Shown: positions 1 to 60,909 of the stretch, piece by piece
Numbering within the stretch: the stretch's first letter is position 1
Layout: each line of letters opens with the position of its first letter
Assembly (NCBI RefSeq): GCF_964204645.1
Contig: NC_134026.1
Span: forward strand, 17,146,150 to 17,210,149
Direction of reading: 5' to 3'
DNA from: Tubulanus polymorphus
Lineage: Eukaryota; Animalia; Nemertea
DNA length: 64,000 bases
Made by a program: the position numbers and the translations under genes
Notes under the pieces: model-generated
Told to the model about the DNA's origin: nothing
The model's input: the letters and a program-made list of their open reading frames with translations, nothing else
The model's database searches: none

Positions 1-335
1 TTATTAGATTATTTAAGATTTATGAAACCGCGAGAACAGCTAGAATTAATGACGCGATATCAGAAAATGTAGTAAAAGGTTATAGTAAATTATGTAGTTA
101 TATGCTGCCAATTCAAGATGAAAATAGATTATATGCTGATTTAAAAAATGATTATTTAGTTATGACTGAATTAAATAAATGGATTGGTTATTTATCATTT
201 CAATTAGGTGGATTTATGACATTATTATCAACTGGAGTTATTACATTTTCAAATATTGAAAGTAAAAATATTTCTATAATAAATGAGCAAGGTGGAAGAA
301 GTGAAGAAAAAACCGAGAACTCAGAAACAAATTGA
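1..335 (+). CDS. Polinton conserved hypothetical protein (5'-partial)
   Basis: LYADLKNDYLVMTELNKWIGYLSFQLG..LLSTGVITFSNI matches LYSDLKNDYLVMTELQKWVGYASFQLG..LISTGVITFSNI in 57251-57775. Confidence 0.8.
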   Translation, partial: IRLFKIYETARTARINDAISENVVKGYSKLCSYMLPIQDENRLYADLKNDYLVMTELNKWIGYLSFQLGGFMTLLSTGVITFSNIESKNISIINEQGGRSEEKTENSETN

Positions 336-12802: not shown

Positions 12803-13024
12803 AACGAATAAAAACCCACAATAGAATTTGTAGTAACAATTTATTTCCTCACAGTTTTGAGGTTAAGACTAAACCTCATCTTCAGAGGAACAAAAATACT
12901 ATGTATTTTTGGAGATGAGGTTTAATTTTAACCTCAAAACTGTTAGGAAACAAATTGTTTCTACAAATCTACTGTGGGTTTTTATTCGTTAACTACGTAT
13001 ACTGAGATTTAGATCAGTTCACCA
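12803..13024. mobile_element. Penelope-like inverted pLTR remnant with degenerate hammerhead motifs
   Basis: Inverted arms spanning ~12800-12993; 11-bp TSD CTGCCGCTGTT (12792-12802, 13025-13035). Minus strand 12847-12888 reads cct-CTGAAGA-t-GAGGTT..AACCTC-AAAA-CTGTG-agg (core GAAA mutated). Confidence 0.7.
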
Positions 13025-15721: not shown

Positions 15722-15791
15722 TATAGTTATCTAAGATGAAGTTTGATAACAGTATACATACTATTATCAAACTTCATCTTAGATAACTATA
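15722..15791. repeat. 70-bp near-perfect palindrome
   Basis: 28-bp perfect arms TATAGTTATCTAAGATGAAGTTTGATAA / TTATCAAACTTCATCTTAGATAACTATA. Confidence 0.9.
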
Positions 15792-35980: not shown

Positions 35981-36029
35981 AATGGAAGAGCAGCTAAGAG
36001 GCAGTTTAGTATAGTAAAAGGTAGTTTAT

Positions 36030-36139
36030 TCAGTCGGTTATAGGTGGTCAAGTGAGGTCAGTTATAGGTGGTCAGTTTAGTCAGTTATAGGTGGTCAGTT
36101 TAGTCAGTTGTAGGTGGTAAATTCTGTCAGTTTTAAGTG
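36030..36139. repeat. ~22-bp tandem repeat (AGGTGGTCAGTTTAGTCAGTTAT-like) upstream of the Helentron ORF; Polinton target
   Basis: About 5 copies; the array resumes at 60816-60838 after the Polinton. Confidence 0.8.
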
Positions 36140-36728
36140 AGTAATAGGGATAATAGGCTTTCAAGCCAAAGGTCGAACGGTCGAGCTCATTAAAAAACAA
36201 AACATTAAAAGTAATTTAAAACTATAATATATTTTCATAACCGTGTGTATTTTATATTATAACTAAATATTTATTCTAAGATATCAATAATTTAAAAAGC
36301 ATATTGTATTAAATCAATTGGTCGCTCCACTTCGCTACCGCTCCGCTCCGCGACCAATTGATTTATTTACAATACACAAATTCATATAATCAAATATATT
36401 TTAATAATAATAATTATTCTATTATTCAACTGAAATACACACGGTTATGAAAATATATTATAGTTTTAAATTACTTTTAATATTTGTTTTTAATGAACTC
36501 GACCATTCAACCTTTAACCTGAAAGCCTATTATCCCTATTACTCTTAAAATAATCATATACATGAATAACATATAAATTGACAGATTATTCAATATAAAA
36601 GTATATATTTACAACATTATTTCAATATTTATATTTGTATGAGTTAGATTTTTAAACATTAAAAGTGTTAGTAAAGTGTGATTGAAATAATACATGATAT
36701 AAATCATTGAACTTCTAAAATCAATTTA
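36140..36728 (+). repeat. Polinton left TIR (first 404 nt form a fold-back)
   Basis: Reverse complement of 60227-60815 with only a handful of substitutions; 36140-36252 pairs with 36433-36543. Confidence 0.95.
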
Positions 36729-36749
36729 AAAAAAAAATTTAGTATTAAA

Positions 36750-38680
36750 ATAGAAGCAAATAAGTACCACTGTCCAACATGTAATATCAATATAGATAAA
36801 TCCCAAAAAGCAAGACACAATAAAACTAAAAAACATTTAGAGAATAAATTGAAACTAGAATATAAAGATGATATATTAGAAACTAAATTAGATGAATTAA
36901 CGAATGAAAAAGAAACATACAAATGTGATACATGTAATCAATCATTCAGTGATAAAAGATATTATAATGAACATTTAAAATCTAAAAGTCATATTAGAAA
37001 TATGAATAATGATATTTTAGGTGAAGATTATTTTGATAAAGATAATGATAAGAAACAGAAGACAATTAAAAGCATAAAAAATAAATTAAACAATAAAAGA
37101 CCATACATGGAAGATGTAAGAAAATATATTAATTCATTGGATAATAAAAAAGATATAGAGATAACCGAAGCATTTAAAAGTGATATTGGCCCAGAAGCTA
37201 TCGAGTTTAAATTTCATAAAGGAAAAACATTAGAAGAAAATAAAAAACATTTAGAAAATATGAAAGAAATAATAAAACTAATAACTGATGTTGAATATCC
37301 TAAAATAAGTATATCTTCTAGAGTTAAATTCATAAAATCTGAAGATAAACCAATATATAATATAAATTCTCATTCACAACATATTATATCTAAACAACAT
37401 ATAGATGATAAATTAGATAAATGTTATAATGAAGTAAAAACTAAAATAGAAGAGAAATATTTTGAAGGATCTGGTTTAATATTTGATGAAATAATATTTA
37501 TGGCTTTACATGTTTATAACACAAAATATAATAAGTTAACTAAATCAAAACCAATAGATGAAAATAATGTATCATATTATAAAGAACCAGATATTGAAGC
37601 ATCGAGTTATATCAAACTACCATTTAAAACTAATGCTGTTATAAATGTACAAAATGAAGATGATAAATGTTTTCTATGGGCTATAATAAGTTGTTTACAC
37701 CCAGTTGAAGATTATAAACAACATAGTTTTAGATTAACTCATTATAAACAATTTGAAAATAATTATAAGATAGATAAGTATCCTGTTATAATTAAAAACA
37801 TCCCAAAAATAGAAAGAGATAATAATATAAAGATAAATGTATTTGATTTAATCAAATTGCCAAATACAAAAGGTAACAACATAAACATTATACATTAGAA
37901 CCTTTATATCTATCAAAAGATTATGATTCAAATGATGTTATAGATATACTATATTATGAGAATCATTATATGTGGATTAAACAAATTGATTTATTCTTTA
38001 GAACAGAAAGTGATCACCATAATAAAATATATCTATGTAGAAAATGTTTACATAGATTCAGTAATGAAAGTACATTATTAAATCATAAACAATTATGTGA
38101 AAATCATGATTATTGTAAATTAGTTTTACCAAATGAAAAGGATAAAATATTAGAATTCAAAAAATATGATTACAAAAATAAAGTACCATTTGTGATATAT
38201 GGAGATTTTGAATCATTAAATAAAGAATTAACTGATCAAGATAGAAAAGAAATATATTATAAAAGAAAGAAATTAAATTCTAATGAAAATGATTTTTCAG
38301 ATGAACCACCAAAAACAAATACTATTAAAAAGATTCATCAATCAGCTGCAGCTTTCGGGTTATATATTAAATCTGATTATCCAGAACTAATTGAAAGTGA
38401 ATATTATCATTATAGAAATGAAAATGTTATTAATCATTTTTGTGACTTATTAATTGAATATGAAATAAGATTTAGTAAATTATTGAATACAAATAAAGAA
38501 ATTATAATGACAGAAGAAGATAAAGAAGAATTTGCGTTTGCAGATAAATGTTATTATTGTGAAAAGATATTTAATTTTAGAGATAAAAAAGTAAGAGACC
38601 ATGATCATTTGAATGGAAAGTTTAGAGGCGCTGCACGTGAGAATTGTAACTCACAAGCTAAGAAAATTAATTTTGTACCA
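36750..38680 (+). pseudogene. Protein-primed family B DNA polymerase, N-terminal part
   Basis: C2H2 fingers, SYIKLP..NVQNEDDKCFLWAI, exonuclease IYGDFES, EndoVII-like CYYC..VRDHDHLNGKFRGAA..CN; frameshift near 37895; interrupted at 38681. Confidence 0.9.
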
Positions 38681-39800
38681 TAGTCAGCCAGCCAACCTTA
38701 AAAAACTATCCTAAAATTCAACGATCACGGCATTTTTTGTTACAGCTTGGCATCCGGGCTCATTTGATAGCAGAGTATGTGGGCTATCATGTGTGGTGGA
38801 TGCCTTTTACAATTTTTTCGTTTTTTGGCCTACAGGGGCGTTAAAGTCAGACATTTTGAAATTAAAACATCTTCATTTTCATTTGACAGGGAAATACACT
38901 TAAAACTACTTTTGCTAAATAATTCGAATATCTCATCTTAGGTTTGGAGTAATTTTACTATCTAAACCTTTTCTGAGTCGGGGGATTACAGCGCATATAG
39001 CGCAACGTTAATTTTATGCATATATTTATTTGTTACCTAGTTATAGCAGCAACAATCTTGTAATATTCACTTGAAAATAGCAATTTCATATGAAATATTC
39101 ATTTTAAAGGTTATTAGCTCAAATAGTGATGTTGTTAATGTTTTTTGTTGGTTATTTTGATATTTCTTTAAACTTACTTATAACTCGTATGTACTTGGTC
39201 AATATCGGGATTAACTGTTTATTGGTTTCTATGGTAACAGCAATTCAAATCTGCGTTCTTCATCCGTCAGGTACCGGTATTTTGGGCGTTGGGTCTTTTG
39301 TGACATTCCATATGTCCTCAAACTCGCCAAAAGTCTTCGACCATTTATTGGGCCGCTTATTACTACGTCTTGCTAACAATTGAATTGCAACAATGGTAAC
39401 CATTAATGCAATTGCAGAAAAATCGCGTAATTTGTCCACATTCTTGACGTAACCAATGGATTATTTGAGTATGTGTTTAATTAAAGCCATTATTTAATCT
39501 TTTCTCTTTCAAAATCTTTAAAATCTTCAAAATTTTAAAATCATTCCATATTCGTTCACGAGTAAATTATAACTAAACGTTGTCACCATGGTAACCATAT
39601 ATTATATGCATTTATTTGAAAAAATTCTTTTTTTCCCATAAAATTTCCCATAAGATTTTCTCCCATATCTTTTGAACCCTTTCACCGAATTTGTCGAATG
39701 AAAGCTCATTTTTGAGGCAATTCCTTGAATTTTCCTTACTTCTAGGGCATGATACTAGTTAACCTTTAGTTAAACTAATATTCCCTTAACTGCAATTTAC

Positions 39801-40971
39801 TTTTTAGCCCACTTGGGACTTAAGTCCCAGCGGGCTATTGCGATCACTTTTCGTGACTACTTTTCAGCCCAAAAACTGGCTCTGTCAGAATCAAGTTGGC
39901 CGACTGTCAGCCATTGTTGTTCGCTAAAATCGACACTTTTTACACATTTTTGAACTTTTGAGGGAAATTTTGAAGACGCTTTGATCAATTACCTTGATCT
40001 TTCGGATGTATGTGAATCCCCCCCCCCCCCAGGGCCCATCAGCATAACAAAAATTGGGTCGATCGGACTCAAGATGACCGTCCTATGACCTTTTTTAGTG
40101 CCCAAAAATGTCAATTTTTGCCCGAATTCTGAGTCCTGTAGCTCCCTACTGGTTTGCTATTCCTCATTGCAATTTGTGATGGGTATTCTTTGAAAAGGGC
40201 TGTTTTATACCTGAGACAGGTATTTTTGATCAGCCAATTATGACGCAATTGGCGGCCATTTTGGTGTCATCAGTACTCATTCATAGGTGGAAAAAAAGTT
40301 TTTCCACATTATATTGATACCTAAGCGTATTTTGTTACCACAATCAATTAGTACCTTGTAGCTCATAACGTGTTCTATGATTGTGGTGAGTTTGAATGTC
40401 ATTGGTATTTGTATATGGCCACCAGGGGGCGTTGAATAATACGATATCTTAGTATTTCTATATTATATTCGTATCAATGCATATTTTGTAACCACAATCA
40501 ATTGCAAAGTTGTAGCTTATGACATCATCTATGATTGTGGCAAGTTTTAAGGCCATTAGTTATTCTATATGGTCACCAGGGGGCGTTGAATAGTAGAATA
40601 ACTTAGTATCTCCTTATTATATTGGTACCTAGGCATATTTTGTTACCGTGATCAATTACAAAGTTATAGTTCGTGACATGTTCTAAGATTGTGGTGAGTT
40701 TCAAGGTCATTGGGTTTTGAATATGGTCACCAGGGGGCGTTGAATAGTAGAATAACTTAGTATTTCCATATTAAATTGGTAACGAGACAAATTTTGTTAC
40801 GACAATCAATTACAAAATCGTAGCTGCTGACATGTTCTATGGTTGTGGTGAGTTTCAAGGTCATTGGTTTTTGCATATGGTCACCAGGGGGCGTTGAATA
40901 TTGAAATTGTAGATTGTTGAGCATTTGGAACCACTTCCCTAGTGGGCATGGTGTCCCTGGACCCCTAGTTT
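39801..40971 (+). mobile_element. HINE/DINE-like non-autonomous Helentron with four 154-bp tandem repeats
   Basis: T-tract start and 5' stem-loop TAGCCCACTTGGGACTTAAGTCCCAGCGGGCTA; 3' subTIR AGTGGGC, small hairpin and CTAGTTT end; CAGGGGGCG at 40423, 40577, 40731, 40885. Confidence 0.75.
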
Positions 40972-41292
40972 ATCATTATCTAGGCAGTTTTCGTGGCAAC
41001 AGCCACATGCAGATGTACAAGTGACATTATTTTTTCTGCATTTACAGTTGGCGCGGCTGCAATCAGTCTTACATTTACAAGAAACCAATTCAGGACATGC
41101 TGAACATGCATTTTTGCTTGATAGTTTGCACGGGCTATATGACGTTGTAATGCATCTTTCTACTTTTGATATTGATAGGATATTGATAGGGACTCAAAGT
41201 GCCCTTTCTTGCTTTTATGGAACTAGGAACGACTGAATGTACCATTTTGTTGAAAATTATCTACCTCGTCTTGTAAAAACACTTTAGCCCGA

Positions 41293-43017
41293 AATTTTCC
41301 ATACTGTTAAATTGCATTATAATAATCTTGTAAAGCATTCCAAGAGGCAGTACTACAATACCAGGATTAGTGATGCAGGTTCGGATGGAAAAGCTATGCA
41401 GAAAGTGTTTGATGAACTTCTTCTGAAAGATGTGAGTAGAAAGCTGCCAGATAGTGATGAATGGGAAGAACTTGCAAATAGATTTGCAACTTTCTTTGCT
41501 GACAAAATTGAGAGGATTAGACTATCTTTCCCAGACTCGTGTTTGGGTCCTGAAGACTGCGTTGATAACCCCGCTCATTAAAAAACAAAGCTTAGATACT
41601 TCCGTTCTCAAAAACTACCGTCCAGTCAGTAACCTCCCGTTTATCTCCAAAGTACTGGAGCGTGTTGTAGCTGTTTGTATAACCGCTTATATGGATGCTA
41701 ACAATTTACATGATATTTACCAGTCTGTGTACAAAACCTGTCACAGCACCGAGACAGCTCTTGTCAAGGTTCAAAGTGACATTCGTAACATGGTTGACGC
41801 TGATGGTGCTGCCATACTTGTCCTTTTAGACCGGAGTGCTGCCTTCGATACTGTGGACCATCTCATCCTTGTAAATCGACTTCAGGTAGTGCTTGGTATT
41901 CATGGTTCAGCACTTCAGTGGTTAATATCGTATCTTGAGAATCGCACGCATCGTGTCGTTATCAACGAACATTACTCTGATTTCTGTAAAGTTGAGTATG
42001 GTGAGCCCCAAGGCTACATGCTGGGGCCACTATTGTTCCTCATTTATTTATTGCCCTTAGTGCAGTTATTTGAGGATAGCAAAGTTTCACGTCATGGTTT
42101 TACGGACGATGGTCAACTGTATATGGCAATCAAATGCAAATCATTGGACATTAGTAGACAAGTTAATGTTATCGAGCTTACATGTTCTCAAGTCAACAAG
42201 TGGCTTATTGACAATAAGTTGATGTGCAATGTGGATAAGTTCGAGGCAATGTTGTTTGGAACAATGCATATACTGCGTTCAATCAACATACGTAGTATTT
42301 GTGTTGACGACTTTGAGATTCCGTTATCGAATAAACCTATCCGAAATCTTGGAGTTATTTCTGACCCTCAGCTCAATATGAAGGCACATGTTAGTAGTTT
42401 TGTCTGTGCTACGTCATATTATCTTAGGGCGTTAGGTAGCATCCGGGACTACTTGTCTGATGCGGCTGCGAAACTATTTATGCAGTCCCTAGTTTTGTCA
42501 AGGATTGACTACTGTAACGCATGCTTGGCAGGATCGTCTTTTTCTTCTCTTCACAGACTGCAATTGATACAGAACCGTGCCGCTCGTATTGTCACCAAAA
42601 CAAAGAAATATGAGCATATAACACCTGTGCTTAAGTCCCGTCACTGGTTGCCTGTGAAACAGCGCATAGAGTTCAAAGTTATTCTCCTTGTTTTTAAGTG
42701 CCTGCACTTGTTGGCTCCAGTCTACTTGAGAGATCTACTCGTTCAGTACAATCCAGTTCGTGCACTAAGATCATCATCTCAAAATTTACTGTCTGCAGCC
42801 CATTACAACCTAAGTACTTTTGGTGGACGTTCATTTACTGTAGTTGCTGCTTCCCTTTGGAATAACATTGATAACCACCTGCGTAATATTCACGATGTCA
42901 ACCAGTTTAAACGTTCCCTAAAACATCTACTCTTTCAACGTGCCTATACTTAGTGACTATGAACCATTGCAGTGCGCCGGAGAACTTATCTTTTAAGAAA
43001 CAGGCGCCTTATAAATG

Positions 43018-43055
<38 letters not shown>

Positions 43056-43057
43056 CA
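41293..43057 (+). mobile_element. 5'-truncated L2/CR1-group LINE
   Basis: RT ORF, (ATT)n tail at ~43021-43057, TSD TTAGCCCGA (41284-41292, 43058-43066). Confidence 0.88.
41312..42953 (+). pseudogene. LINE reverse transcriptase (internally deleted, degenerate)
   Basis: NYRPVSNLPFISKVLE, STETAL, D.SAAFDTVDH, G.PQG..LGPLLF, FTDD, HITPVL..HWLPV. Confidence 0.92.
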
Positions 43058-44963
43058 TTAGCCCGAGGACCTTTTTAGTCTGCTATTGTGCCCTATACCA
43101 CTTTGACAACATTTTAATTGATTCTGGTATCTAAAACTACGTCAACGAACTTAGTAATGTGAATGGTATACGGACCACATGTCGGACACGGAATGTGGAA
43201 GGTTTTTTGGACGTTGAAAATTTGAAATGGGCAAGTTCACCTAAGGGGGTTCCTCCAAACCCATGTACAGGCCTAAGTCTGCAGATTTAAACACGGGTCC
43301 ACCGACTATCAGTCGGTGAAGAACCTGGAACTTCACTGGGCCTCACAAATTTAACATGAATTGAGACAAAAAGACAAAGGAATTAGTGCAAGCAGCTTAC
43401 GCTGTATAATCAAAGGTTTTCTAGAGATCGAGCAAATTATTCAAACCCTACCACCTCAACTGCGTCATTTCGCTTATAATTTAGAAACTATTGCTGACCA
43501 GGCCCCGGCCGTGCTTGGTCTACATAACATAGTGATAATTATTTGGGGTTTTCAGCAACAAAAATGTCCATACATTGACAAAATCAAATAGTATTAAATA
43601 TAAGTATTATATGAGGCCTGCCTACCTATTAGTTATAAGGCCTATTCTCCACTCAAATATCTTAGAATTCCATCCTTCCTCAACTATTGAATCCCATCTT
43701 TTCCTAATCATAATAGAGTCTCATTCCTTCTTCATGACATTTTCAGGCCAACTCAGACAATTATTGAAGCTGTTGCAATTTCTTCATCAAAAATTGATCA
43801 GTCAAACTACAACTATGAAATATTTCATTGACACAAGTTTTGGTGATAATGAAGTGTCTATTATTCGAAAGCCAATCATTTTCACTGAACAGCATATATC
43901 CTGACAAAAATCATTCAACACACTCCAACGTTAGGATCATTAATGTCATGCCCTAGAAGTAAAGAAAATTCAAGGAATTGCCTCAAAAATGAGCTTTCAT
44001 TCGACAAATTCGGTGAAAGGGTTCAAAAGATATGGGAAAAAAAGAATTTTTTCAAATAAACGCATATAATGTATGGTTACCATGGTGACAACGTTTAGTT
44101 ATGATTTACTCGTGAACGAATATGGAATTATTTTAAAATTTTAAAGAAAAAAGATTAGATATGGTTTTAAATAAACACATCCTCAATTAATCCATTGGTT
44201 ACGTCAAGAATGTGGACAAATTACGCGATTTTTCGGCAATTGCAACAATGGTTATCATTGTTGCAATTCAATTGTTAGCAAGACGTAGTAACAAGCGGCC
44301 CAATAAATGGTCCAAGACTTTTTGGCAAGTTAAGGACATATGGAATGTCACGAAAGACCCAACGCCCAAAATACCGGTACCTGACGGATGAAGAACGCAG
44401 ATTTGAATTGCTGTTACCATAGAAACCAATAAACAGTTAATCCCGATATTGACCAAGTACATACGAGTTATAAGTAAGTTTAAAGAAATATCAAAATAAT
44501 CAACAAAAAACATTAACAACATCACTATTTGAGCTAATAACCTTTAAAATGAATATTTCATATGAAATTGCTATTTTCAAGTGAATATTACACGATTGTT
44601 GCTGCTGTAACTAGGTAACAAATAAATGTATGCATAAAATTAACGTTGCGCTATATGCGCTGTAATCCCCCGACTCAGAAAAGGTTTAGATTGTAAAATT
44701 ACTCCAAACCTAAGATGAGATATTCGAATCACTTAGCAAAAGTAGTTTTAAGTGTATTTCCCTGCCAAATGAAAATGAAGATGTTTTAATTTCAAAATGT
44801 CTGACTTCAACGCCCCCTGTAGGCCAAAAAACGAAAGAATTGTAAAAGGCATCCACCACACATGATAGCCCACATACTCTGCTATCAAATGAGCCCGGAT
44901 GCCAAGCTGTAACAAAAAATGCCGTGATCGTCGAATTTTCCATGATTGGCTGGCTGACTACCA

Positions 44964-47053
44964 GTTATATTTCATAATCTATCAGGATATGATGCACATT
45001 TATTCATCAAACAGTTATGCCATAAAATAGAAGAAACTAATAATGAAATAGAAAGATTAAATTCAAATAGATCAAAAGATAAAATACCAACTTATAAATT
45101 TAGAATGTTAGCTAAAACATCTGAGAATTATATATCATTCCAATTTGGTTGCCTAAGATTTATAGATTCATATAGATTTTTGAATAGTTCATTAGATAAC
45201 TTATCAAAGTAAGTTGATGATGAATTAAAAATATTAAAGCAACACTACCCAAATAATGATGATTTTAATTAATGAGATATAAAGGAGCAATTCCATATTC
45301 ATTTTATAAATCACATAATGATTTCAATATAACTGAATTATTGAAAGAACAATTCTATGATGAATTAAAAAATGAATATGTTAAAGATGAAGTATATAAT
45401 AGAACATTGAATATTTGGAATCATTTCAAAATAGAAAATCATGGGCAATTAGATATATATTTAAAATCAGATGTATTATTATTAACCGATATATTCGAAA
45501 GGTTTAGAGATGTAAACCTAAAATATTTTAACATTGATCCATGTCATTGTTATTCATCACCAGGATTAACATGGGATTGTGGATTAAAATTTACAGATAT
45601 AAAAATGGATTTGTTAACAAATATAGATCAATTATTATTATTTGAAAAATCTATAAGAGGAGGAGTTTCAGGTGTATTAGGGGATAGATATTTCAATGTA
45701 AATGATAACCCTGGATATAAGTTATTATATATAGATGCAAATAATCTATATGGTTGGGCAATGATGGAACCACAACCTTATGGAGTATTTGAATTAACTG
45801 AAGTTTTACAGAATGAAAATAATGACAAATTTGATTGGAAGAAAAGAATCCTAGATATTGCAGATGATTCAGATACTGGTTACTTCTTTGTTGTAGATTT
45901 AGAATATCCTGAACATATTAAATTTAAATCTAGAAATCTAGCATACTGTCCAGAACATAAAACTGTTACTCATGAAGAATTATCAAATTATCAAAAAAGA
46001 ATTAAACCCGAAAATCCTATTCATACAGAAAAGTAAATGGTAACTCAGGAAGATAAATATAATTATGTAGTACATTATAGAATGTTAAAGTTTTATTTGA
46101 ATCAAGGAATGGTTTTAAAAAAAGTACATAGATATATTTCATTTAGTCAATCTAAGTGGTTAGAAAAATATATAGATTTTAACACCAAACAGAGAACTGA
46201 AGCTAAAACTGATTTCGAAAAAGATTTCTTCAAGTTAATGAATAATGCATTCTATGGTAAGACTTGTGAAAATATTAGAAATAGAAATGATATTGAGTTA
46301 GTTAGTAATGGTAAAAGGATAAGGCATTTACAAACATATCCTAAGTTCATTGGTAACAGAATATTTGATGAAAATTTAGCTGCAGTTAAGATGAGAAGAA
46401 CATCAATGAAATTTAATAAACCAATCTATGTTGGCGCTTCAGTTTTAGAATTATCAAAATTACTAATGTATGAATTCTATTATAATGTATTACAACCACT
46501 TTTTGGAGAAAAACATATAGAAATACTATATTTTGATACTGACAGTTACATATTAAAGATAAAAACTGATAACATAACAGATGATTTAAAAACATTAAAA
46601 CATCATATTGATTTCAGTAACTATCCTAAAGATCATGAATTGTTTAGCAATGATAATAAAAAAGTTCCCGGTAAATTCAAGGATGAATTAGGTGGTGAAG
46701 AAATGATTGAGTTCATCGGTATTAGATCTAAAATGTATTCATATAAAACTAAAGAACATGAAGCTAAAAAGTTAAAAGGAATAACCAAAAGTGTAGTAGA
46801 AAAGAATATTCATTTCAAAGATTACATCAATTGTATATTCAATGAAGAAGTTAGAAAACATAAGATGAGATGTTTAAGATCTGAAGATCATGAAGTATTT
46901 ATTGAAGAAATTGAAAAGATAAGTCTAAACCCATTTGATGATAAAAGATATATTCTGGATGATGGAATTCATACAGTTGCATATGGTTGCAATTTAGATG
47001 AATACTTAAAATTTAAAAGAGAAGAAACAAAAGAGAACGAGATAATGAAATGA
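44964..47053 (+). pseudogene. Protein-primed family B DNA polymerase, C-terminal part
   Basis: HNLSGYD, FIDSYRF, YLKSDV, IRGG, YIDANNLYGWAM, KLMNNAFYGK, YFDTDS, KVPGKFKDE, KLKG, DDKR; stops near 45210 and at 46034. Confidence 0.95.
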
Positions 47054-47097
47054 ATTCTAACGTGTTAATCAAATTTTAATAAAAATATGTTATTAAA

Positions 47098-47455
47098 ATG
47101 GAGAGTAAACAAGCACACAGTGAGAACAACAAATTATTTCTAGATAGAATTAAAGATATAACAAATGTAAAATCTGTAGATTATAAATTCAAAAAGTTAA
47201 CAGAATTAACAATTCATAAGAAATATCTAATTACAAATATTGATACAGTTACTAATAACTATGGAGATAAATTAGTTATACACTTAGAATATATATGAAG
47301 GATTAACAGGAAATACATATAAATTCAGAACATATTTACCGGATAGATTTCATAGATTATCAAGTGAAGATCTAGAAGAATTATGTTCTGGTGATTTCTA
47401 TTTCGTATACAAAGGTAAGAATGAAAAAGGGCACCATGAAATAGATTTCGAATAA
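47098..47455 (+). pseudogene. Polinton hypothetical protein (frameshift)
   Basis: Homolog at 803-1117 in element A. Confidence 0.65.
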
Positions 47456-52410: not shown

Positions 52411-53658
52411 ATGAGTGGGAGTTATATCAATCCTTCTAAGAATCATAGAATATCTAATGCTATTAAAGCAGAAAGATCACATCATATAATTACTCATAAC
52501 CCTTCTAATATTAATCCCGATGAAACTTTATATGTTAGAATCCCTCGATTAACACAAAATACTTTTTATGTTCCAAATAGTATTTATTTATCAGCCGATA
52601 TAAAAGTAATCGGTAATAATAATAATTATGTTGTTGATAATGTTGGAAGATATTTGATTAAAAAATTAACTATAAAGATTGGTCCAGAAACAGTTTTCTC
52701 ATTAGATGATTATAATTTATTTATGCATTATAAAGATTTATGGTTAACTAAAGAAAACAGAAATAATATGATATTTAAAGGCATCCAATCAGAAAACCAA
52801 AATAAATTAAGATCTGAAGCCAATAATGCAGTAGTAACTAATGCTGTAGATAATTTGATAAAAAAGATTTATGGAAGCAAATATAAAATTCCATTAGACT
52901 TTGAATTGATAAATAATAATGCACCTTTATATAAATACGCAATTCAAGAAGATGTTATATTCGAAATAACATTTGCTCCTGTAAATGAAATTGTATTATC
53001 TAGCGTTGTTAAAGATATGGGTTATAAATTATCGAATATATGTTTAGAATATGACACAGTAACTGATGAAAATATTTCAAGTATAATTCAAACTCAATAC
53101 AATCAAGGATTTTCATTATTATATGATTATATTGATAAATTTAAAACTGTAACTATTAATGCAAATGATGAAATTATTAATGAGAATATTAACTTCCCAA
53201 GAAGATCTATTAAAGGTATATTAATATTTTTTACCATTGCAACATATTCTAATGGTGCAATACAGGTTGATAAGTATTATAATCCTGAAATAACAAAAGT
53301 AGAAATAACTATCGAAGGAATAGCAAATAAAATATTTTGTCAAGGAATGAGAATGATTGATCAATGGCCAGAAATTAGAAAACATTTTATGAATGAAAAA
53401 GTGAAATCATCTGAAAATTGTAATATTAATCAAATTGATTATTATACCGGTAATAAATATGCATTATGGTTAGATTTTAGAACAACAGAGGATAATTCAT
53501 TACATGGTTCTGGAAAAAAATTACAAAACACTAAAGATGGAATACAATTATTCATGACAAAGAATAAAGGAATCAAAAATTTTAAAATGCACATTTATAT
53601 TATATCTGACGCGCAATTAAATATTGTAAATTCACAATTAGATAGTGTTATGTATTAA
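52411..53658 (+). CDS. Major capsid protein (double jelly-roll, hexon-like)
   Basis: 415 aa intact; THNPSNI.P.ETLYVRIP.L, YKIPLDF, NICLEYD, NINFPRRSIKGIL, YNPEI.KV.ITIEG, YALWLDFR..DN.LHGSG, DAQLNI. Confidence 0.85.
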   Translation: MSGSYINPSKNHRISNAIKAERSHHIITHNPSNINPDETLYVRIPRLTQNTFYVPNSIYLSADIKVIGNNNNYVVDNVGRYLIKKLTIKIGPETVFSLDDYNLFMHYKDLWLTKENRNNMIFKGIQSENQNKLRSEANNAVVTNAVDNLIKKIYGSKYKIPLDFELINNNAPLYKYAIQEDVIFEITFAPVNEIVLSSVVKDMGYKLSNICLEYDTVTDENISSIIQTQYNQGFSLLYDYIDKFKTVTINANDEIINENINFPRRSIKGILIFFTIATYSNGAIQVDKYYNPEITKVEITIEGIANKIFCQGMRMIDQWPEIRKHFMNEKVKSSENCNINQIDYYTGNKYALWLDFRTTEDNSLHGSGKKLQNTKDGIQLFMTKNKGIKNFKMHIYIISDAQLNIVNSQLDSVMY

Positions 53659-54440: not shown

Positions 54441-54754
54441 GCATATTGATAATAAAGATTCTATCCAACTTAAATCAGAAAATAAAGATATAGTTGAGAT
54501 GACTAATAAGTATATCAATAAACCAATTATTTATGAAGATACGGTAAAAAGGGTGAAGAATAAGTATATCAATAAACCAATTATTTATGAAGATACGGTA
54601 GAGCATTTGAATAAATTGTTAGGGTCTGATGATGAATTGGAGAGTGATGATGAAAGTGATTCAGAAAGTAATTATCTAACACTCAAAAAGTAATAAAGGT
54701 TGAAAATTGTATAAAATAATAGTAAATAAAAAAGGGGGTTTTAAGTATTAAGGT

Positions 54755-55062
54755 ATCTAACACATATCTAATACTTATCTAATACGTATCTAATACGTAT
54801 CTAATACGTATTTAATACGTATCTAATACATATCTAATACGTATTATTTGAAAAAACCTTAAATTATATTTCTTTTTTAAATTTATATTATAAACCTCAG
54901 TAATAATAAATAACCTTTATTATTTTCAAACTTATTCATATATTAGTTGAAAAAAATAAAAATAAATTGGTTGAAAATTATATGAATAATATTTATTTTA
55001 AAAATGGGGTTTTAAGCATTAATGTATTTAATACGTATCTAATACGTATTTAATACGTATTA
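54755..55062. repeat. 11-bp tandem repeats (TATCTAATACG) in two blocks between convergent gene clusters
   Basis: About 8 copies at 54755-54845 and 3-4 copies at 55025-55062, each block preceded by GGGGTTTTAAG. Confidence 0.8.
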
Positions 55063-55083
55063 GATAGATAGATATATAAATAG

Positions 55084-55685
55084 TTATTTTATAAACTTAT
55101 ATTCATAGGGAAATTGTAATCTCAGTAATAATTTTGAACCTTTATTATTCTTTAATTTATTCATATATTCATCATGTATTTCAGGAGGTATAATTTGATT
55201 TTCTTCCAATGATTGTTGCATAGATTTTTTATCTTTGTTATAAAATAAAACTAGAAATCTTATATTCTCCCTAAAGTCTTTAACAATTGAATTATATTTT
55301 TGATTTAAAACCCATGTTGTTATCCCGAAATGTCTCCCAGAGAAAGCTAAAAAACATAACTCAGTTTCTCTAACTTTTGAATCATGTAAATTTGCGCAAT
55401 CATCTATAATGAATAATGTATTTGATCCTTTATAAGTATCAGTTGCTATTTTAATACAATTATCTAAATTTTCTTTTACTGTTTTAGGATCTAATATAAT
55501 AAACTTTTTCATCTTAACTATATCTCTATTATATGTTTTATTCATTTCATAAGTAGGACAAAATAATATTATATTATCAAAATGATTCTTATAAACAGTT
55601 TCCAACAAATCTAATATGAAATGTGTTTAACACAGTTTGTTACTCCAGGAACTAACATATTATGCGGTTCAAATATAAATAAATC
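55084..55685 (-). pseudogene. A32/FtsK-like packaging ATPase
   Basis: PHNML..GVTNC then a damaged GKT, IILFCPT, Walker B FIIDD, SGRH.GI..W.LNQ....K..REN; frameshift in Walker A. Confidence 0.85.
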
Positions 55686-55686
55686 T

Positions 55687-56805
55687 TTATTCATTTATTC
55701 TTTTAATTTTACTAGATAAAATCCATTCATTAAACATATCATCATATCCTTTATATTTCACCAAAGAATACTTTTTTCCTTTAAGAGTTTTTGATTTAAA
55801 TACTTTTTCTATTTTGTATTCTATTTCATCTGGATTTGGTACAAGTGATAATTCTTGTCCATAGAAATAACCTAATATTTCTTCATCTTTTATATCTTCT
55901 AATTTATAAACAAAAGGTTTAGTTAATATTATATTTTTAATTTTAAATATTTCTTCAGTAAAATTAGGGGTATAACCTTTATAAAATGTTTTTCTATATT
56001 TAGATATTCTTACGTGTTGTCCTATTTTAAATTTAGGTTCTCCGAAATCATGTGTAACAAATGCTCCATATAAATTATTCCAAACTATTTCTGAATTATC
56101 TTCTTTTCTAGTTTGTATAGGTTTCATATTTATAGAACTATGTTTAGAATTATTATAACCTTTCACTAAATCATCTAACACATCGATATATTTATATGTT
56201 TCATTAGCATTAAAATATTTCCACATTCTAGTTTTCAATGTTTTATTAAATCTTTCAATAATAGATGCTTTTTTATCTGAATGTGTTGAAAAATAATCTA
56301 CATCGTTATCAGATAATAGTTATTTGAAATGTTTGTTATAAAATTCCTTACCTTCATCAAATTGTATCTTATCTGGAATAGCTTCTTTAAATATATTCTT
56401 AAAAGCATTTGTAACTTCTATTCCAGTTTTATTTTTTATTGGAATTGACCATGCGTATCTACTGAATATGTCTATAACATTCAGTATCCAGAAATATCCT
56501 TTGTTGTATTCCTCTAAGTTCTTCATGTCAATTAAATGAGCTTGCCATTGTTGATCGATATATGAAACCATAACTTTTCTTGTTGAATAAGTTTTATCCA
56601 TTTTCTTGTGGATTTGATATGTTGGTTGATTTTGTAACCATGATTTTAATTCACTATATTTTATACTACCGTGTGGGTGCCATACGGCACCATTACCATT
56701 TTCATTATCAGATTTAATTCTATTCCATAATTCTGAAACGTTAGAATATGATACTTCACTTTCTGGGTTATAATATAAATCTCTTAAATATTGTTCTTTT
56801 TTCAT
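55687..56805 (-). pseudogene. Retroviral-like (rve) integrase with C-terminal chromodomain, frameshifted near 56320
   Basis: WQA.LIDM, IDIFSRYAW, DEGKEF, KASIIERFNKTLK, YNNSKHSSI.MKP, F.KGY.PNF, YKIEKV..LVKYKGY..FNEWI. Confidence 0.93.
56668..56694. repeat. 27-bp GC-rich hairpin micro-element, copy 3
   Basis: In-frame NGAVWHPHG within the integrase N-terminus. Confidence 0.8.
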
Positions 56806-56811
56806 CTTATT

Positions 56812-57250: not shown

Positions 57251-57775
57251 CTAACCTGATTTACATTCCATAGGCTTGATGTTCGAAAATGTTATGACAC
57301 CAGTAGAAATTAATGTCATAACCGATCCTAATTGAAATGAAGCATAACCAACCCATTTTTGTAATTCAGTCATAACTAAGTAGTCATTTTTCAAATCACT
57401 ATATAATTTATTTTCATCATTAATTGGTATTAACTGGTTACATAACTTAGAATAACATTTGACAATACCATCTGAAATAGAATCATTTATTCGGGCCAAT
57501 CTTGCCTCTTCATAAATCTTAAAATATTTTATTACTTTATCGGGTTTCATAGCATCTAATTCTTGAATAGTTATTATTTTTCCCAAGAAATCCTTAGATT
57601 TCCCGCCAGCAATTAATAATTCAAGATGATGCTTACAATATAAATAGTATTCATAATCTATATTACAATTAACTTGAGCACAATTAGTTACAACTGTATC
57701 TTTATTATCACTTATACCCAAATCATCTAATGTCTTTTCAATATCAATACTATTCTTATTAGATTTCTTTGACAT
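57251..57775 (-). CDS. Polinton conserved hypothetical protein
   Basis: Homolog of 1-335. Confidence 0.75.
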   Translation of the reverse strand: MSKKSNKNSIDIEKTLDDLGISDNKDTVVTNCAQVNCNIDYEYYLYCKHHLELLIAGGKSKDFLGKIITIQELDAMKPDKVIKYFKIYEEARLARINDSISDGIVKCYSKLCNQLIPINDENKLYSDLKNDYLVMTELQKWVGYASFQLGSVMTLISTGVITFSNIKPMECKSG

Positions 57776-59574: not shown

Positions 59575-60204
59575 CTAACCACTGATCAAAACCTCAGAAT
59601 GCGGTTGATTCTGTGAAATACTATTCCATAATTCAACAAATGTCTTTGCTTTATCCAGTTGATCTAAATATAACTGTAAATCTAGTTTATTGGATTTAAT
59701 TATGTTTTCCTTCTTTTCTAAAGGTCTTAGATTCTTCCAATTCCATATTAGCATCTTATTATAATCATCACTCATGTCAAATTTAGAAATTGGCAACACG
59801 TGATCAATATGAAAGTATTCGCCATAATTATCTATATTCATTTTATCATCGAATTGAAATATAATCCATGATTTTAAGAATTCATCTGAACAACCCAATA
59901 AATTAGATAGTGTTTCTGAATGTGTTTCTTTGTTGAATAATTGTTTTAATCTAAAATTAAGATCTGTTTGATATCTTTCTCTCATATATTCTGTCATATA
60001 ATCATTATAAGCTTCTCTATTATCTTCTCGATATTGTTTGGTATATAGTTTAAAACAAGTTTTGCAGCAATATTGAAAACCATCTTTGCTAAATTCTGTT
60101 AAAGCTAATTTATCTATTTCACATTTAGAACACTTCTTGTAGTATATATTTATGGCACCAGTGTTATTTGTAATATTGATAGTTTGTGGTTGTTCTGATT
60201 CCAT
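59575..60204 (-). CDS. HNH endonuclease with N-terminal CxxC zinc motif
   Basis: KKCSKC..CKTC; LLGCS..L..W..FQF...M..DNYG..FHIDHVLP..F..WNWKNLRPL...EN..KSNK. Confidence 0.85.
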   Translation of the reverse strand: MESEQPQTINITNNTGAINIYYKKCSKCEIDKLALTEFSKDGFQYCCKTCFKLYTKQYREDNREAYNDYMTEYMRERYQTDLNFRLKQLFNKETHSETLSNLLGCSDEFLKSWIIFQFDDKMNIDNYGEYFHIDHVLPISKFDMSDDYNKMLIWNWKNLRPLEKKENIIKSNKLDLQLYLDQLDKAKTFVELWNSISQNQPHSEVLISG

Positions 60205-60226: not shown

Positions 60227-60815
60227 TAAATTGATTTTAGAAGTTCAATGATTTATATCATGTATTATTTCAATCACACTTTACTAACACATTTAATGTT
60301 TAAAAATCTAACTCACACAAATATGAATATTGAAATAATGTTGTAAATATATACTTTTATATTGAATAATCTGTCAATTTAAATGTTATTCATGTATATG
60401 ATTATTTTAAGAGTAATAGGGATAATAGGCATTCAGGTTAAAGGTTGAATGGTCGAGTTCATTAAAAACAAATATTAAAAGTAATTTAAAACTATAATAT
60501 ATTTTCATAACCGTGTGTATTTCAGTTGAATAATAGAATAATTATTATTATTAAAATATATTTGATTATATGAATTTGTGTATTGTAAATAAATCAATTG
60601 GTCGCGGAGCGGAGCGGTAGCGAAGTGGAGCGACCAATTGATTTAATACAATATGCTTTTTAAATTATTGATATCTTAGAATAAATATTTAGTTATGATA
60701 TAAAATACACACGGTTATGAAAATATATTATAGTTTTAAATTACTTTTAATGTTTTGTTTTTTAATGAGCTCGACCGTTCGACCTTTGGCTTGAAAGCCT
60801 ATTATCCCTATTACT
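60227..60815 (-). repeat. Polinton right TIR (60412-60815 fold-back)
   Basis: Inverted copy of 36140-36728. Confidence 0.95.
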
Positions 60816-60909
60816 TAAGTGGTCAATTTCAGTCAGCTAAAAATAATGGTCAATCATGACGTCTTTCATTCAAATCAATCACTATATATATACTAGGTTA
60901 TTCGACTAT

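What the first reader, a model, noticed from the sequence alone, without database searches (positions are those of the whole stretch)
36140..36543. Polinton whose TIRs each begin with a 404-nt fold-back: parvovirus-like self-priming end geometry
Seen: the terminal 404 nt at both ends (36140-36543 and 60412-60815) are themselves inverted repeats. The outer stem of ~112 bp starts exactly at the terminal AGTAATAGGGATAATAGG and is followed by an AT-rich imperfect middle, a 16-bp inner stem and a 24-nt loop. In the outer stem all 7 substitutions shared by both ends (six C/T, one A/G) give G-T wobbles on the strand carrying the element's 3' end and A-C mismatches on the other strand. Known: Polintons are modelled as protein-primed with plain TIRs, while parvoviruses prime from terminal hairpins. 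Inference: the fold is selected on one single strand, where the 3' terminus would anneal 404 nt inside as a primer. Alternatively it is a long RNA hairpin, or each end is a mini-element with two integrase-recognisable termini.
Basis: partly seen in the sequence, partly recalled or inferred. Interest (0 to 1): 0.88.

Follow-up and report, generated by a model that had tools for sequence, protein, structure and literature searches.

The report
Polinton ends with conserved fold-back hairpin
Both ends of a virus-like Polinton transposon carry a 404-letter fold-back whose two arms change together among the host's many copies and which recurs in related elements, so it likely folds on one single DNA strand and likely serves as a local starting point for copying, although the element keeps its predicted protein primer.

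Summary
The 24.7-kb element is a Polinton with a 6-bp TSD. Each end is a 404-nt fold-back, and 7 of 7 shared transitions give G·T on the 3'-end strand.

Host reads show a family trait. Six of 11 variable outer-arm positions have the complementary change at the mirror position (1.1 expected). A relative with an intact polymerase (L004) has its own 257-nt fold-back, and L006 has part of one. L008 and L011 lack it.

No flip/flop ends or solo units appeared among the best-supported read rows, no HUH nickase was found, and the terminal-protein domain with its predicted priming serine is kept. Plain parvovirus-type resolution is therefore unlikely.

Best reading (0.45): the single strand folds to rebuild a duplex origin for protein priming, as Streptomyces telomeres do. 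Rivals: self-priming with one-sided resolution (0.25), neutral arm homogenisation (0.15), RNA hairpin (0.12).

Terminal palindromes with a hairpin-priming model are already in a 2026 preprint on protist virophages/PLVs, mostly those without pPolB. This scan also noted a Maverick end hairpin in another genome (unchecked). This is a new variant, not a new kind.

The parts
36134..36139 (.). left 6-bp target-site duplication
   Evidence: same hexamer at 60816-60821; lies in a 23-nt flank minisatellite (D12)
36140..36251 (+). left outer arm of the fold-back (true terminus; carries two copies of a short motif shared with L004, L006, L008)
36252..36433 (+). left middle: AT-rich imperfect part, 16-bp inner stem (36310-36325 / 36350-36365), 24-nt GC-rich loop (36326-36349)
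36434..36543 (-). left inner arm (inverted copy of the terminus)
36544..36730 (+). rest of the left TIR (about 590 bp in all; 6 differences from the right TIR in the first 589 bp)
36711..37898 (+). pPolB N-terminal piece: C2H2 fingers, terminal-protein domain (about 37155-37517, predicted linking Ser at 37470-37472), vOTU start
37877..38683 (+). pPolB second piece (other frame) with endonuclease VII-like domain
38681..44960 (.). nested DNA transposon of about 6.3 kb with long TIRs and a 3-bp TSD, holding a reverse-transcriptase fragment (41436-42953); interrupts pPolB
   Evidence: empty site seen as loose ends behind 38680
44958..47053 (+). remaining pPolB pieces (broken by in-frame stops)
52411..53658 (+). 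major capsid protein, double-jelly-roll type (lead by features)
55084..55626 (-). A32-type packaging ATPase
55687..56811 (-). rve integrase with chromodomain, in two pieces
59575..60204 (-). stand-alone endonuclease VII/HNH-like ORF next to the right TIR
   Evidence: phrog_1035, E 3e-14
60412..60521 (+). right inner arm
60522..60703 (-). right middle with inner stem and loop
60704..60815 (-). right outer arm (true terminus)
60816..60821 (.). right 6-bp target-site duplication

Best explanation
Each end of this Polinton carries an inverted inner copy of its own terminus, and the strand bearing the 3' end likely folds back on that copy as single-stranded DNA, which would rebuild a double-stranded origin on the spot for the element's predicted terminal-protein primer. 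Shown: the fold-back, its family-wide mirror covariation, the G·T bias, a fixed outer/inner order, and a retained terminal-protein fold. Inferred: a single-stranded stage (strand displacement or single-strand excision, as in the Kapitonov-Jurka model); folding in vivo; the outer arm holds the protein-binding motif, while the inner arm only has to pair on one strand and so drifts by changes that leave G·T; this drift keeps the inner copy from acting as a second end for integrase or polymerase. The same fold could template repair of a shortened 3' end. Protein priming keeps the arm order, so no flip/flop would arise.
For: Mirror covariation: 6 of 11 variable outer and 11 variable inner stem positions pair up with complementary changes (1.1 expected, P 8e-5), plus a mirrored 1-nt insertion (36217/36463). 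Arms within an element are 86% alike over 66 nt, against 64-68% between window and L004; 7 of the first 24 pairs differ on both sides. G·T direction: 7 of 7 transitions in the window, 3 of 3 in L004, one position shared. The motif has C in 6 of 6 outer-arm copies and T in 4 of 6 inner-arm copies. Arm order is fixed: 1851+210 loose-ended reads at the outer boundary, none of the 6 rows shown at the inner one. Terminal protein: model pLDDT 85, beta-alpha-beta-beta-alpha-beta with Ser140 in the loop between the second helix and the last strand, Ser in 68 of 75 rows, top PDB matches Y-family polymerases, including the little-finger domain of 4ir1 (Z 7.8, rmsd 2.7, 94 aligned), as described for Polinton TPs. 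Precedent: Streptomyces TP-primed telomeres fold back at the 3' overhang (PMC4513846). L004's apical loop reads C-GAA-G on the 3'-end strand, a DNA mini-hairpin type (recalled).
Against: No folded or extrachromosomal molecule was observed. The 590-bp TIRs could already form a panhandle, so a local one looks redundant. L008 (intact pPolB, 63-64% to L004/L006) has the terminal motif but no inner arm, and L011 has a plain end, so the fold is dispensable in the wider clade. With DNA parameters L004 shows no strand preference (-69.5 against -69.4), only with RNA (-117.3 against -103.0), and 5 transversions break its outer stem. Four inner-arm variants (positions 39, 42, 55, 62; 20-30% of reads) have no partner among the 40 of 65 rows shown. 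C-to-T and A-to-G are also what deamination of one strand gives. A paired 3'-OH on a continuing template would tend to be extended, as in the Streptomyces in vitro side product.
Confidence: 0.45

Rival explanations
1. Self-priming with one-sided resolution: the folded 3' end is extended, giving a hairpin-closed duplex and then a dimer junction, which an element nuclease cuts at only one arm, so that one orientation is kept. The terminal protein would start rounds at open ends.
For: The fold starts exactly at the terminal base and leaves a template beyond 36543 (also L004). The arms pair yet differ in a fixed way, with a 2-nt bulge, like the one-active-arm left end of autonomous parvoviruses (recalled). 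Two endonuclease VII-like domains are encoded. 21 reads switch strand at exact mirror positions 36218/36467 and 36221/36464. The same model is proposed for protist virophages/PLVs.
Against: No HUH/Rep found. No outer-inner swapped ends among the rows shown. The endonuclease VII-like pPolB piece also finds L008 and L011, which lack the fold. The preprint's palindromes go mostly with non-pPolB elements. The 21 reads, of about 1,700 depth, may be library chimeras or rare inversions.
Confidence: 0.25
2. No priming role: one ancestral fold-back duplication is kept alike by gene conversion or template switching between close inverted arms, and the strand bias comes from deamination of one strand.
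For: Conversion gives mirrored changes without selection. At 4 of the 7 wobble sites, 21-39% of reads carry the pair-restoring letter. L008 lacks the fold. Several C/T sites lie in CpG context.
Against: Fixed C/T differences at positions 35 and 47 (no variant row shown) sit between covarying positions 26 and 78, which wholesale copying would erase. Lineages with 78% pPolB identity (L004, L006) and short-loop variants all keep both arms and the exact end register. CpG decay would also give the opposite direction, which was seen 0 of 10 times.
Confidence: 0.15
3. A long RNA hairpin made by outward transcription through the TIR, acting as a dsRNA decoy or small-RNA source.
For: The strand gap is larger with RNA parameters in both elements (37 and 14 kcal/mol); G·U pairs suit RNA.
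Against: The fold begins and ends exactly at the DNA terminus in both lineages. The favoured strand is antisense to the genes at both ends. No Rfam match to E 0.1.
Confidence: 0.12
4. Composite element: each 404-bp unit is a mini-transposon with two integrase ends.
For: Both unit ends read like a Polinton terminus; unit depth is about 3 times the polymerase depth where 2 is expected.
Against: No loose-end row at the inner boundary (under 210 reads, against 2061 outside). Depth is also high beyond the TIR (36782-37009), which fits internally deleted copies. No solo unit in the window.
Confidence: 0.03

Closest known systems
Polintons/Mavericks (adintoviruses; PMC8502044 passages; bioRxiv 2024.03.18.585575 passages and section 6)
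   Same: pPolB with terminal-protein and vOTU domains, rve integrase, A32 ATPase, capsid protein, long TIRs, 6-bp TSD.
   Different: The first 404 nt of each TIR are a fold-back; the passages read mention no hairpin at the ends. No adenain protease was found here.
Terminal palindromes of Halocafeteria virophages and PLV subtype 4 (bioRxiv 10.64898/2026.07.28.741278, section 7 read)
   Same: Palindrome at the TIR tip next to the TSD in rve-integrated elements; hairpin priming proposed.
   Different: There 52 nt in the example and mostly in non-pPolB elements, with no covariation, strand bias or isomer test in the section read. Here 257-404 nt, imperfect, in an animal Polinton that keeps its terminal protein.
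Streptomyces telomeres (PMC4513846 passages)
   Same: Terminal-protein priming combined with a 3' single strand whose terminal palindrome can fold onto an inner one; fold-back extension is seen in vitro.
   Different: Bacterial; internal origin with end patching by Tap/Tpg; unrelated proteins; several short palindromes instead of one long stem.
Parvovirus terminal hairpins (mechanism recalled; PMC4061559 passages for the contrast with bidnaviruses)
   Same: Imperfect terminal palindrome whose 3' end can pair inside the genome.
   Different: No HUH/Rep found, no flip/flop seen, integrase-made TSD, protein-primed polymerase.
Poxvirus hairpin telomeres (PMC8956199 passages)
   Same: AT-rich, incompletely paired inverted repeat; a resolvase-type nuclease is encoded.
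   Different: Poxviruses scramble flip and flop forms equally; here arm order is fixed in integrated copies.

Membership tests
Polinton/Maverick | protein-primed family B polymerase | tested here: met
   PF03175 on two pieces; broken here, intact in L004, L006, L008
Polinton/Maverick | N-terminal terminal-protein domain with linking Ser/Tyr | tested here: met
   against the description; activity not tested
Polinton/Maverick | rve integrase and 6-bp TSD | tested here: met
Polinton/Maverick | long TIRs | tested here: met
   about 590 bp, 98%
Polinton/Maverick | packaging ATPase and major capsid protein | tested here: met
   PF04665; capsid by Atlas features 0.97-0.98, no Pfam hit
Polinton/Maverick | adenain-type maturation protease | tested here: inconclusive
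   no hit among 24 ORFs in Pfam, 21 window ORFs in PHROGs, 16 in NCBIfam; many ORFs unassigned
Parvovirus-type rolling-hairpin replicon | terminal palindrome able to pair the 3' end inside the genome | tested here: met
   (prediction only)
Parvovirus-type rolling-hairpin replicon | HUH nickase with SF3 helicase | tested here: inconclusive
   no such hit; unassigned ORFs were not folded
Parvovirus-type rolling-hairpin replicon | flip/flop isomers from terminal resolution | tested here: not met
   no loose-end row at 36543 (under 210 against 2061 reads) and no 36140/36544 joint among 15 of 31 joints shown; integrated copies only; one-sided resolution would not give isomers (recalled)
Parvovirus-type rolling-hairpin replicon | hairpin-closed replicative forms | not testable with these tools
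   needs free molecules or long reads
MITE / composite of two mini-elements | solo units with their own TSDs | tested here: not met
   upper bound about 10% of outer ends; no host assembly held
Known structured RNA family | Rfam match | tested here: not met
   0 matches to E 0.1 in 36000-36800

The most novel reading that the evidence does not exclude
A clade of animal Polintons uses two priming modes on one genome: a terminal protein at open ends and a self-priming fold-back whose arms differ on purpose, so that only the outer one is cut or loaded. That would join the protein-primed and rolling-hairpin strategies in one integrating dsDNA virus.
Probability: 0.25. Interest if true: 0.85.

Novelty: new variant of a known kind. 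Interest (0 to 1): 0.62.

Why it matters
How Polintons replicate rests on a model from sequence: single-strand excision, a TIR panhandle and protein priming. This clade gives a sequence handle on it. A covarying, strand-biased fold at the exact terminus is indirect evidence for a single-stranded stage and names the strand that matters. Close relatives with the fold (L004, L006) and without it (L008), all with intact polymerase genes, form a natural comparison. The finding also extends the terminal palindromes reported in protist virophages/PLVs to elements that keep pPolB and its terminal protein, against that preprint's association with non-pPolB replicons.

Tried and rejected
No host genome is held, so copies were studied through reads only. 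No RNA holder was listed; this is no evidence on expression. Pattern scans for the window's own end found nothing in viral contigs or metagenome contigs. Capsid and integrase queries found no relative in viral contigs. Three capsid loci in prokaryotic bins (L001-L003) are short and show no terminal fold-back. Seven distant pPolB loci (L009-L015, 28-34% identity) show no terminal fold-back, but an end was recognised only in L011, so the other six do not count. L005 and L007 begin too close to the gene to hold an end. The terminal-motif scan gave 2 hits: L016 lies in a phage-like gene, and neither has an inverted repeat; both dropped as chance. No match in plasmids. The bacterial promoter scan is irrelevant to a eukaryotic element. 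The small ORF homologous to L004:571-936 had only a sub-threshold Atlas lead to phi29-type SSB (0.82) and 3 homologues; it was not folded and is not used. Logan contigs X1, X2, X5 break into short pieces here and were not used for counts. The vOTU half of the model was barely tested by the PDB search. An assembly artefact was rejected: L004 has its own fold-back and the reads show mirrored variants.

Full report
Element. The window holds a 24,676-bp element at 36140-60815, with TIRs of about 590 bp (98% alike) and the 6-bp TSD TAAGTG. It encodes pPolB pieces (PF03175, PF02945), an A32 ATPase, an rve integrase with chromodomain, a capsid-like protein and an endonuclease VII-like ORF beside the right TIR. 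pPolB is broken by a frame change, stops and a nested transposon of about 6.3 kb; the integrase is in two pieces. No protease or HUH protein was found in Pfam (24 ORFs), PHROGs (21 window ORFs) or NCBIfam (16 ORFs). It is a Polinton. Earlier, unchecked notes call the host a ribbon worm.

Observation. Both ends fold back from the terminal base: outer arm 112 nt, inner arm 110 nt, AT-rich imperfect middle, 16-bp inner stem, 24-nt loop. The two units differ at 2 of 404 positions. The seven substitutions shared by both ends are all transitions that give G·T on the strand with the element's 3' end (P 0.016). There is also a 2-nt bulge, and one private mismatch at the right end. Folding z-scores are -21 and -22. 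The 3'-end strand wins by 10-12 kcal/mol as DNA and 37 as RNA. The nested transposon's TIRs show no such direction (8 against 6).

Copies in the host. No assembly was available. One raw-read run of the same species label (X6, 12 in 100 of it read) was laid twice. Depth was 3-9 on the flank, 330-630 on the polymerase at 37580-38700, and about 1,430-1,630 on the unit; I estimate a few hundred ends. In one search, 40 of 65 variant rows were shown. Among stem positions, 11 outer and 11 inner ones vary in about 20% or more of reads. Six are mirror pairs with complementary changes (positions 11, 16, 26, 78, 105, 109; 1.1 expected, P 8e-5), and a 1-nt insertion is mirrored too. The variants are linked in subfamilies and unphased, so the P value is generous; 80 of 8,341 reads fit two places. 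At 4 of the 7 wobble sites, 21-39% of reads restore the Watson-Crick pair. Positions 35 and 47 show no variant row. At positions 26 and 109 the outer change is commoner than the inner one (41 against 22%, 57 against 25%), a surplus that would again be G·T on the 3'-end strand; at 78 the surplus (33 against 21%) would be a mismatch. Four inner variants (39, 42, 55, 62) and two outer ones (50, 52) have no partner among the rows shown. Loose letters behind 36196 and before 36497 look complementary to one another by eye, which suggests a subfamily with a different stem. Several joints skip 300-320 nt of the middle and keep both arms (8-20 reads each), so short-loop versions exist.

Isomers and solo units. 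1851+210 reads end loosely at the outer boundary with diverse flanks (agreement 0.34-0.36). None of the 6 loose-end rows shown (159 not shown, all weaker) lies at 36543, so inner-boundary ends are under about 10%. No joint from 36140 to 36544 is among 15 of 31 joints shown. This excludes an even flip/flop mix and a common solo unit among integrated copies. Against this, 21 reads switch strand at exact mirror positions: rare inversions of the middle, or library chimeras.

Relatives. A metagenome scan gave 5 loci at 59-71% identity; 3 reach an end. L004 has an intact 1,363-aa pPolB and a 257-nt fold-back at 190-446 that runs from the terminal base. BLASTN finds no similarity between it and the window TIR, yet the first 45 nt are in register. 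Arms are 86% alike within each element and 64-68% between them, and 7 of the first 24 pairs changed on both sides. Its 3 transitions are all G·T on the 3'-end strand (one at a position shared with the window), but 5 transversions break the stem and DNA energies are equal on both strands. L006 begins inside a fold-back and keeps the inner arm. L008 has the terminal motif but no inner arm. The distant L011 has a plain end. A twice-repeated motif has C in 6 of 6 outer-arm copies and T in 4 of 6 inner-arm copies.

Priming protein. The N-terminal pPolB piece was modelled from 75 sequences (pLDDT 85). Residues 47-155 form beta-alpha-beta-beta-alpha-beta, with Ser140 in a Gly-Ser-Gly loop before the last strand; Ser is in 68 of 75 rows and the vOTU Cys in 72 of 75. 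The top PDB matches are Y-family polymerases (2r8j Z 8.2, rmsd 2.7, 104 aligned; 4ir1 little finger Z 7.8, rmsd 2.7, 94 aligned). These Z values are middling, but the match is the one described for Polinton terminal proteins. The best viral match is an adintovirus protein (E 3e-9). L004, L006 and L008 keep the serine. So the fold-back has not replaced protein priming.

Mechanism. Shown: an end-registered fold-back under concerted change, a direction bias, a fixed arm order and a retained terminal-protein fold. Inferred: the 3'-end strand folds as single-stranded DNA. I favour a local origin (0.45): the fold recreates a duplex terminus for the terminal-protein polymerase, the outer arm keeps the binding motif, and the inner arm is held only to pairing. 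Self-priming with one-sided resolution (0.25) fits the geometry and the fixed arm difference but lacks a known nickase. Neutral homogenisation with strand-biased deamination (0.15) and an RNA hairpin (0.12) are not excluded; L004's energies favour the RNA reading. The two ssDNA models together get about 0.7.

Literature. bioRxiv 10.64898/2026.07.28.741278 (passages and section 7 read; figures and supplements not seen, and they may list pPolB elements with palindromes) reports palindromes at TIR tips in four virophage subtypes and one PLV subtype, proposes hairpin priming and links them mostly to non-pPolB replicons. PMC4513846 (passages) describes fold-back of Streptomyces 3' overhangs with terminal-protein priming. 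PMC8956199 (passages) describes equal flip and flop forms in vaccinia. Passages of PMC4061559, PMC8502044, PMC11296320, PMC11161782 and bioRxiv 2026.10.13.758929 describe no terminal fold-back in Polintons. Searches listed no report on animal pPolB Polintons with such ends; the library lacks most subscription papers, Repbase and Kapitonov and Jurka 2006 (known here only through). One-sided resolution in autonomous parvoviruses and the stability of GAA-loop DNA hairpins are recalled; one search found no paper with all five terms. Earlier scan notes report an end hairpin in a polymerase-less Maverick of another genome (unchecked).

Verdict. A real, constrained, clade-level feature and a new variant of Polinton end structure. 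The concept has precedent; the covariation, strand bias, isomer test and retained terminal protein are what is new here. Interest 0.62.

Noticed in passing
   Followed up: partly
window 3-256 to about 1000: Fragment of a second, related Polinton in the opposite orientation (75% to 57279-57532); no terminus seen in the window.
   Followed up: no
window 38681-44960: Nested DNA transposon with TIRs of about 1.1 kb in pieces, ends starting TAG and a 3-bp TSD (Academ-like by recall), itself holding a reverse-transcriptase fragment; reads show the empty site in other copies.
   Followed up: partly
L004 948-962: A direct internal copy of the first 15 terminal bases sits 60 nt upstream of the pPolB start; the window has no such third copy.
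   Followed up: no
reads on window 36184-36506: Short-loop versions of the end (roughly 95-125 nt) keep both arms; one has a small hairpin of its own in the middle.
   Followed up: partly
window 36140-36196: Read depth on the first 57 nt is about twice that on the inner arm (3,400 against 1,700); other subfamilies share only the tip, or their inner arms map there.
   Followed up: no
L004 571-936, L006 upstream ORF, window 47083-47298: A small conserved ORF beside pPolB has a weak Atlas lead to phi29-type single-strand binding proteins (0.82, lead only).
   Followed up: partly
L008: Intact pPolB facing a 697-aa ORF head-on, with the clade's terminal motif but no fold-back: a natural control.
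   Followed up: partly
window 54742-55081: 11-nt tandem repeats in two opposed blocks where the two gene arms of the element converge (D3, I13-I16).
   Followed up: no
window 12826-12968 and 15722-15791: Two short near-perfect hairpins outside the element (I10 and I19).
   Followed up: no
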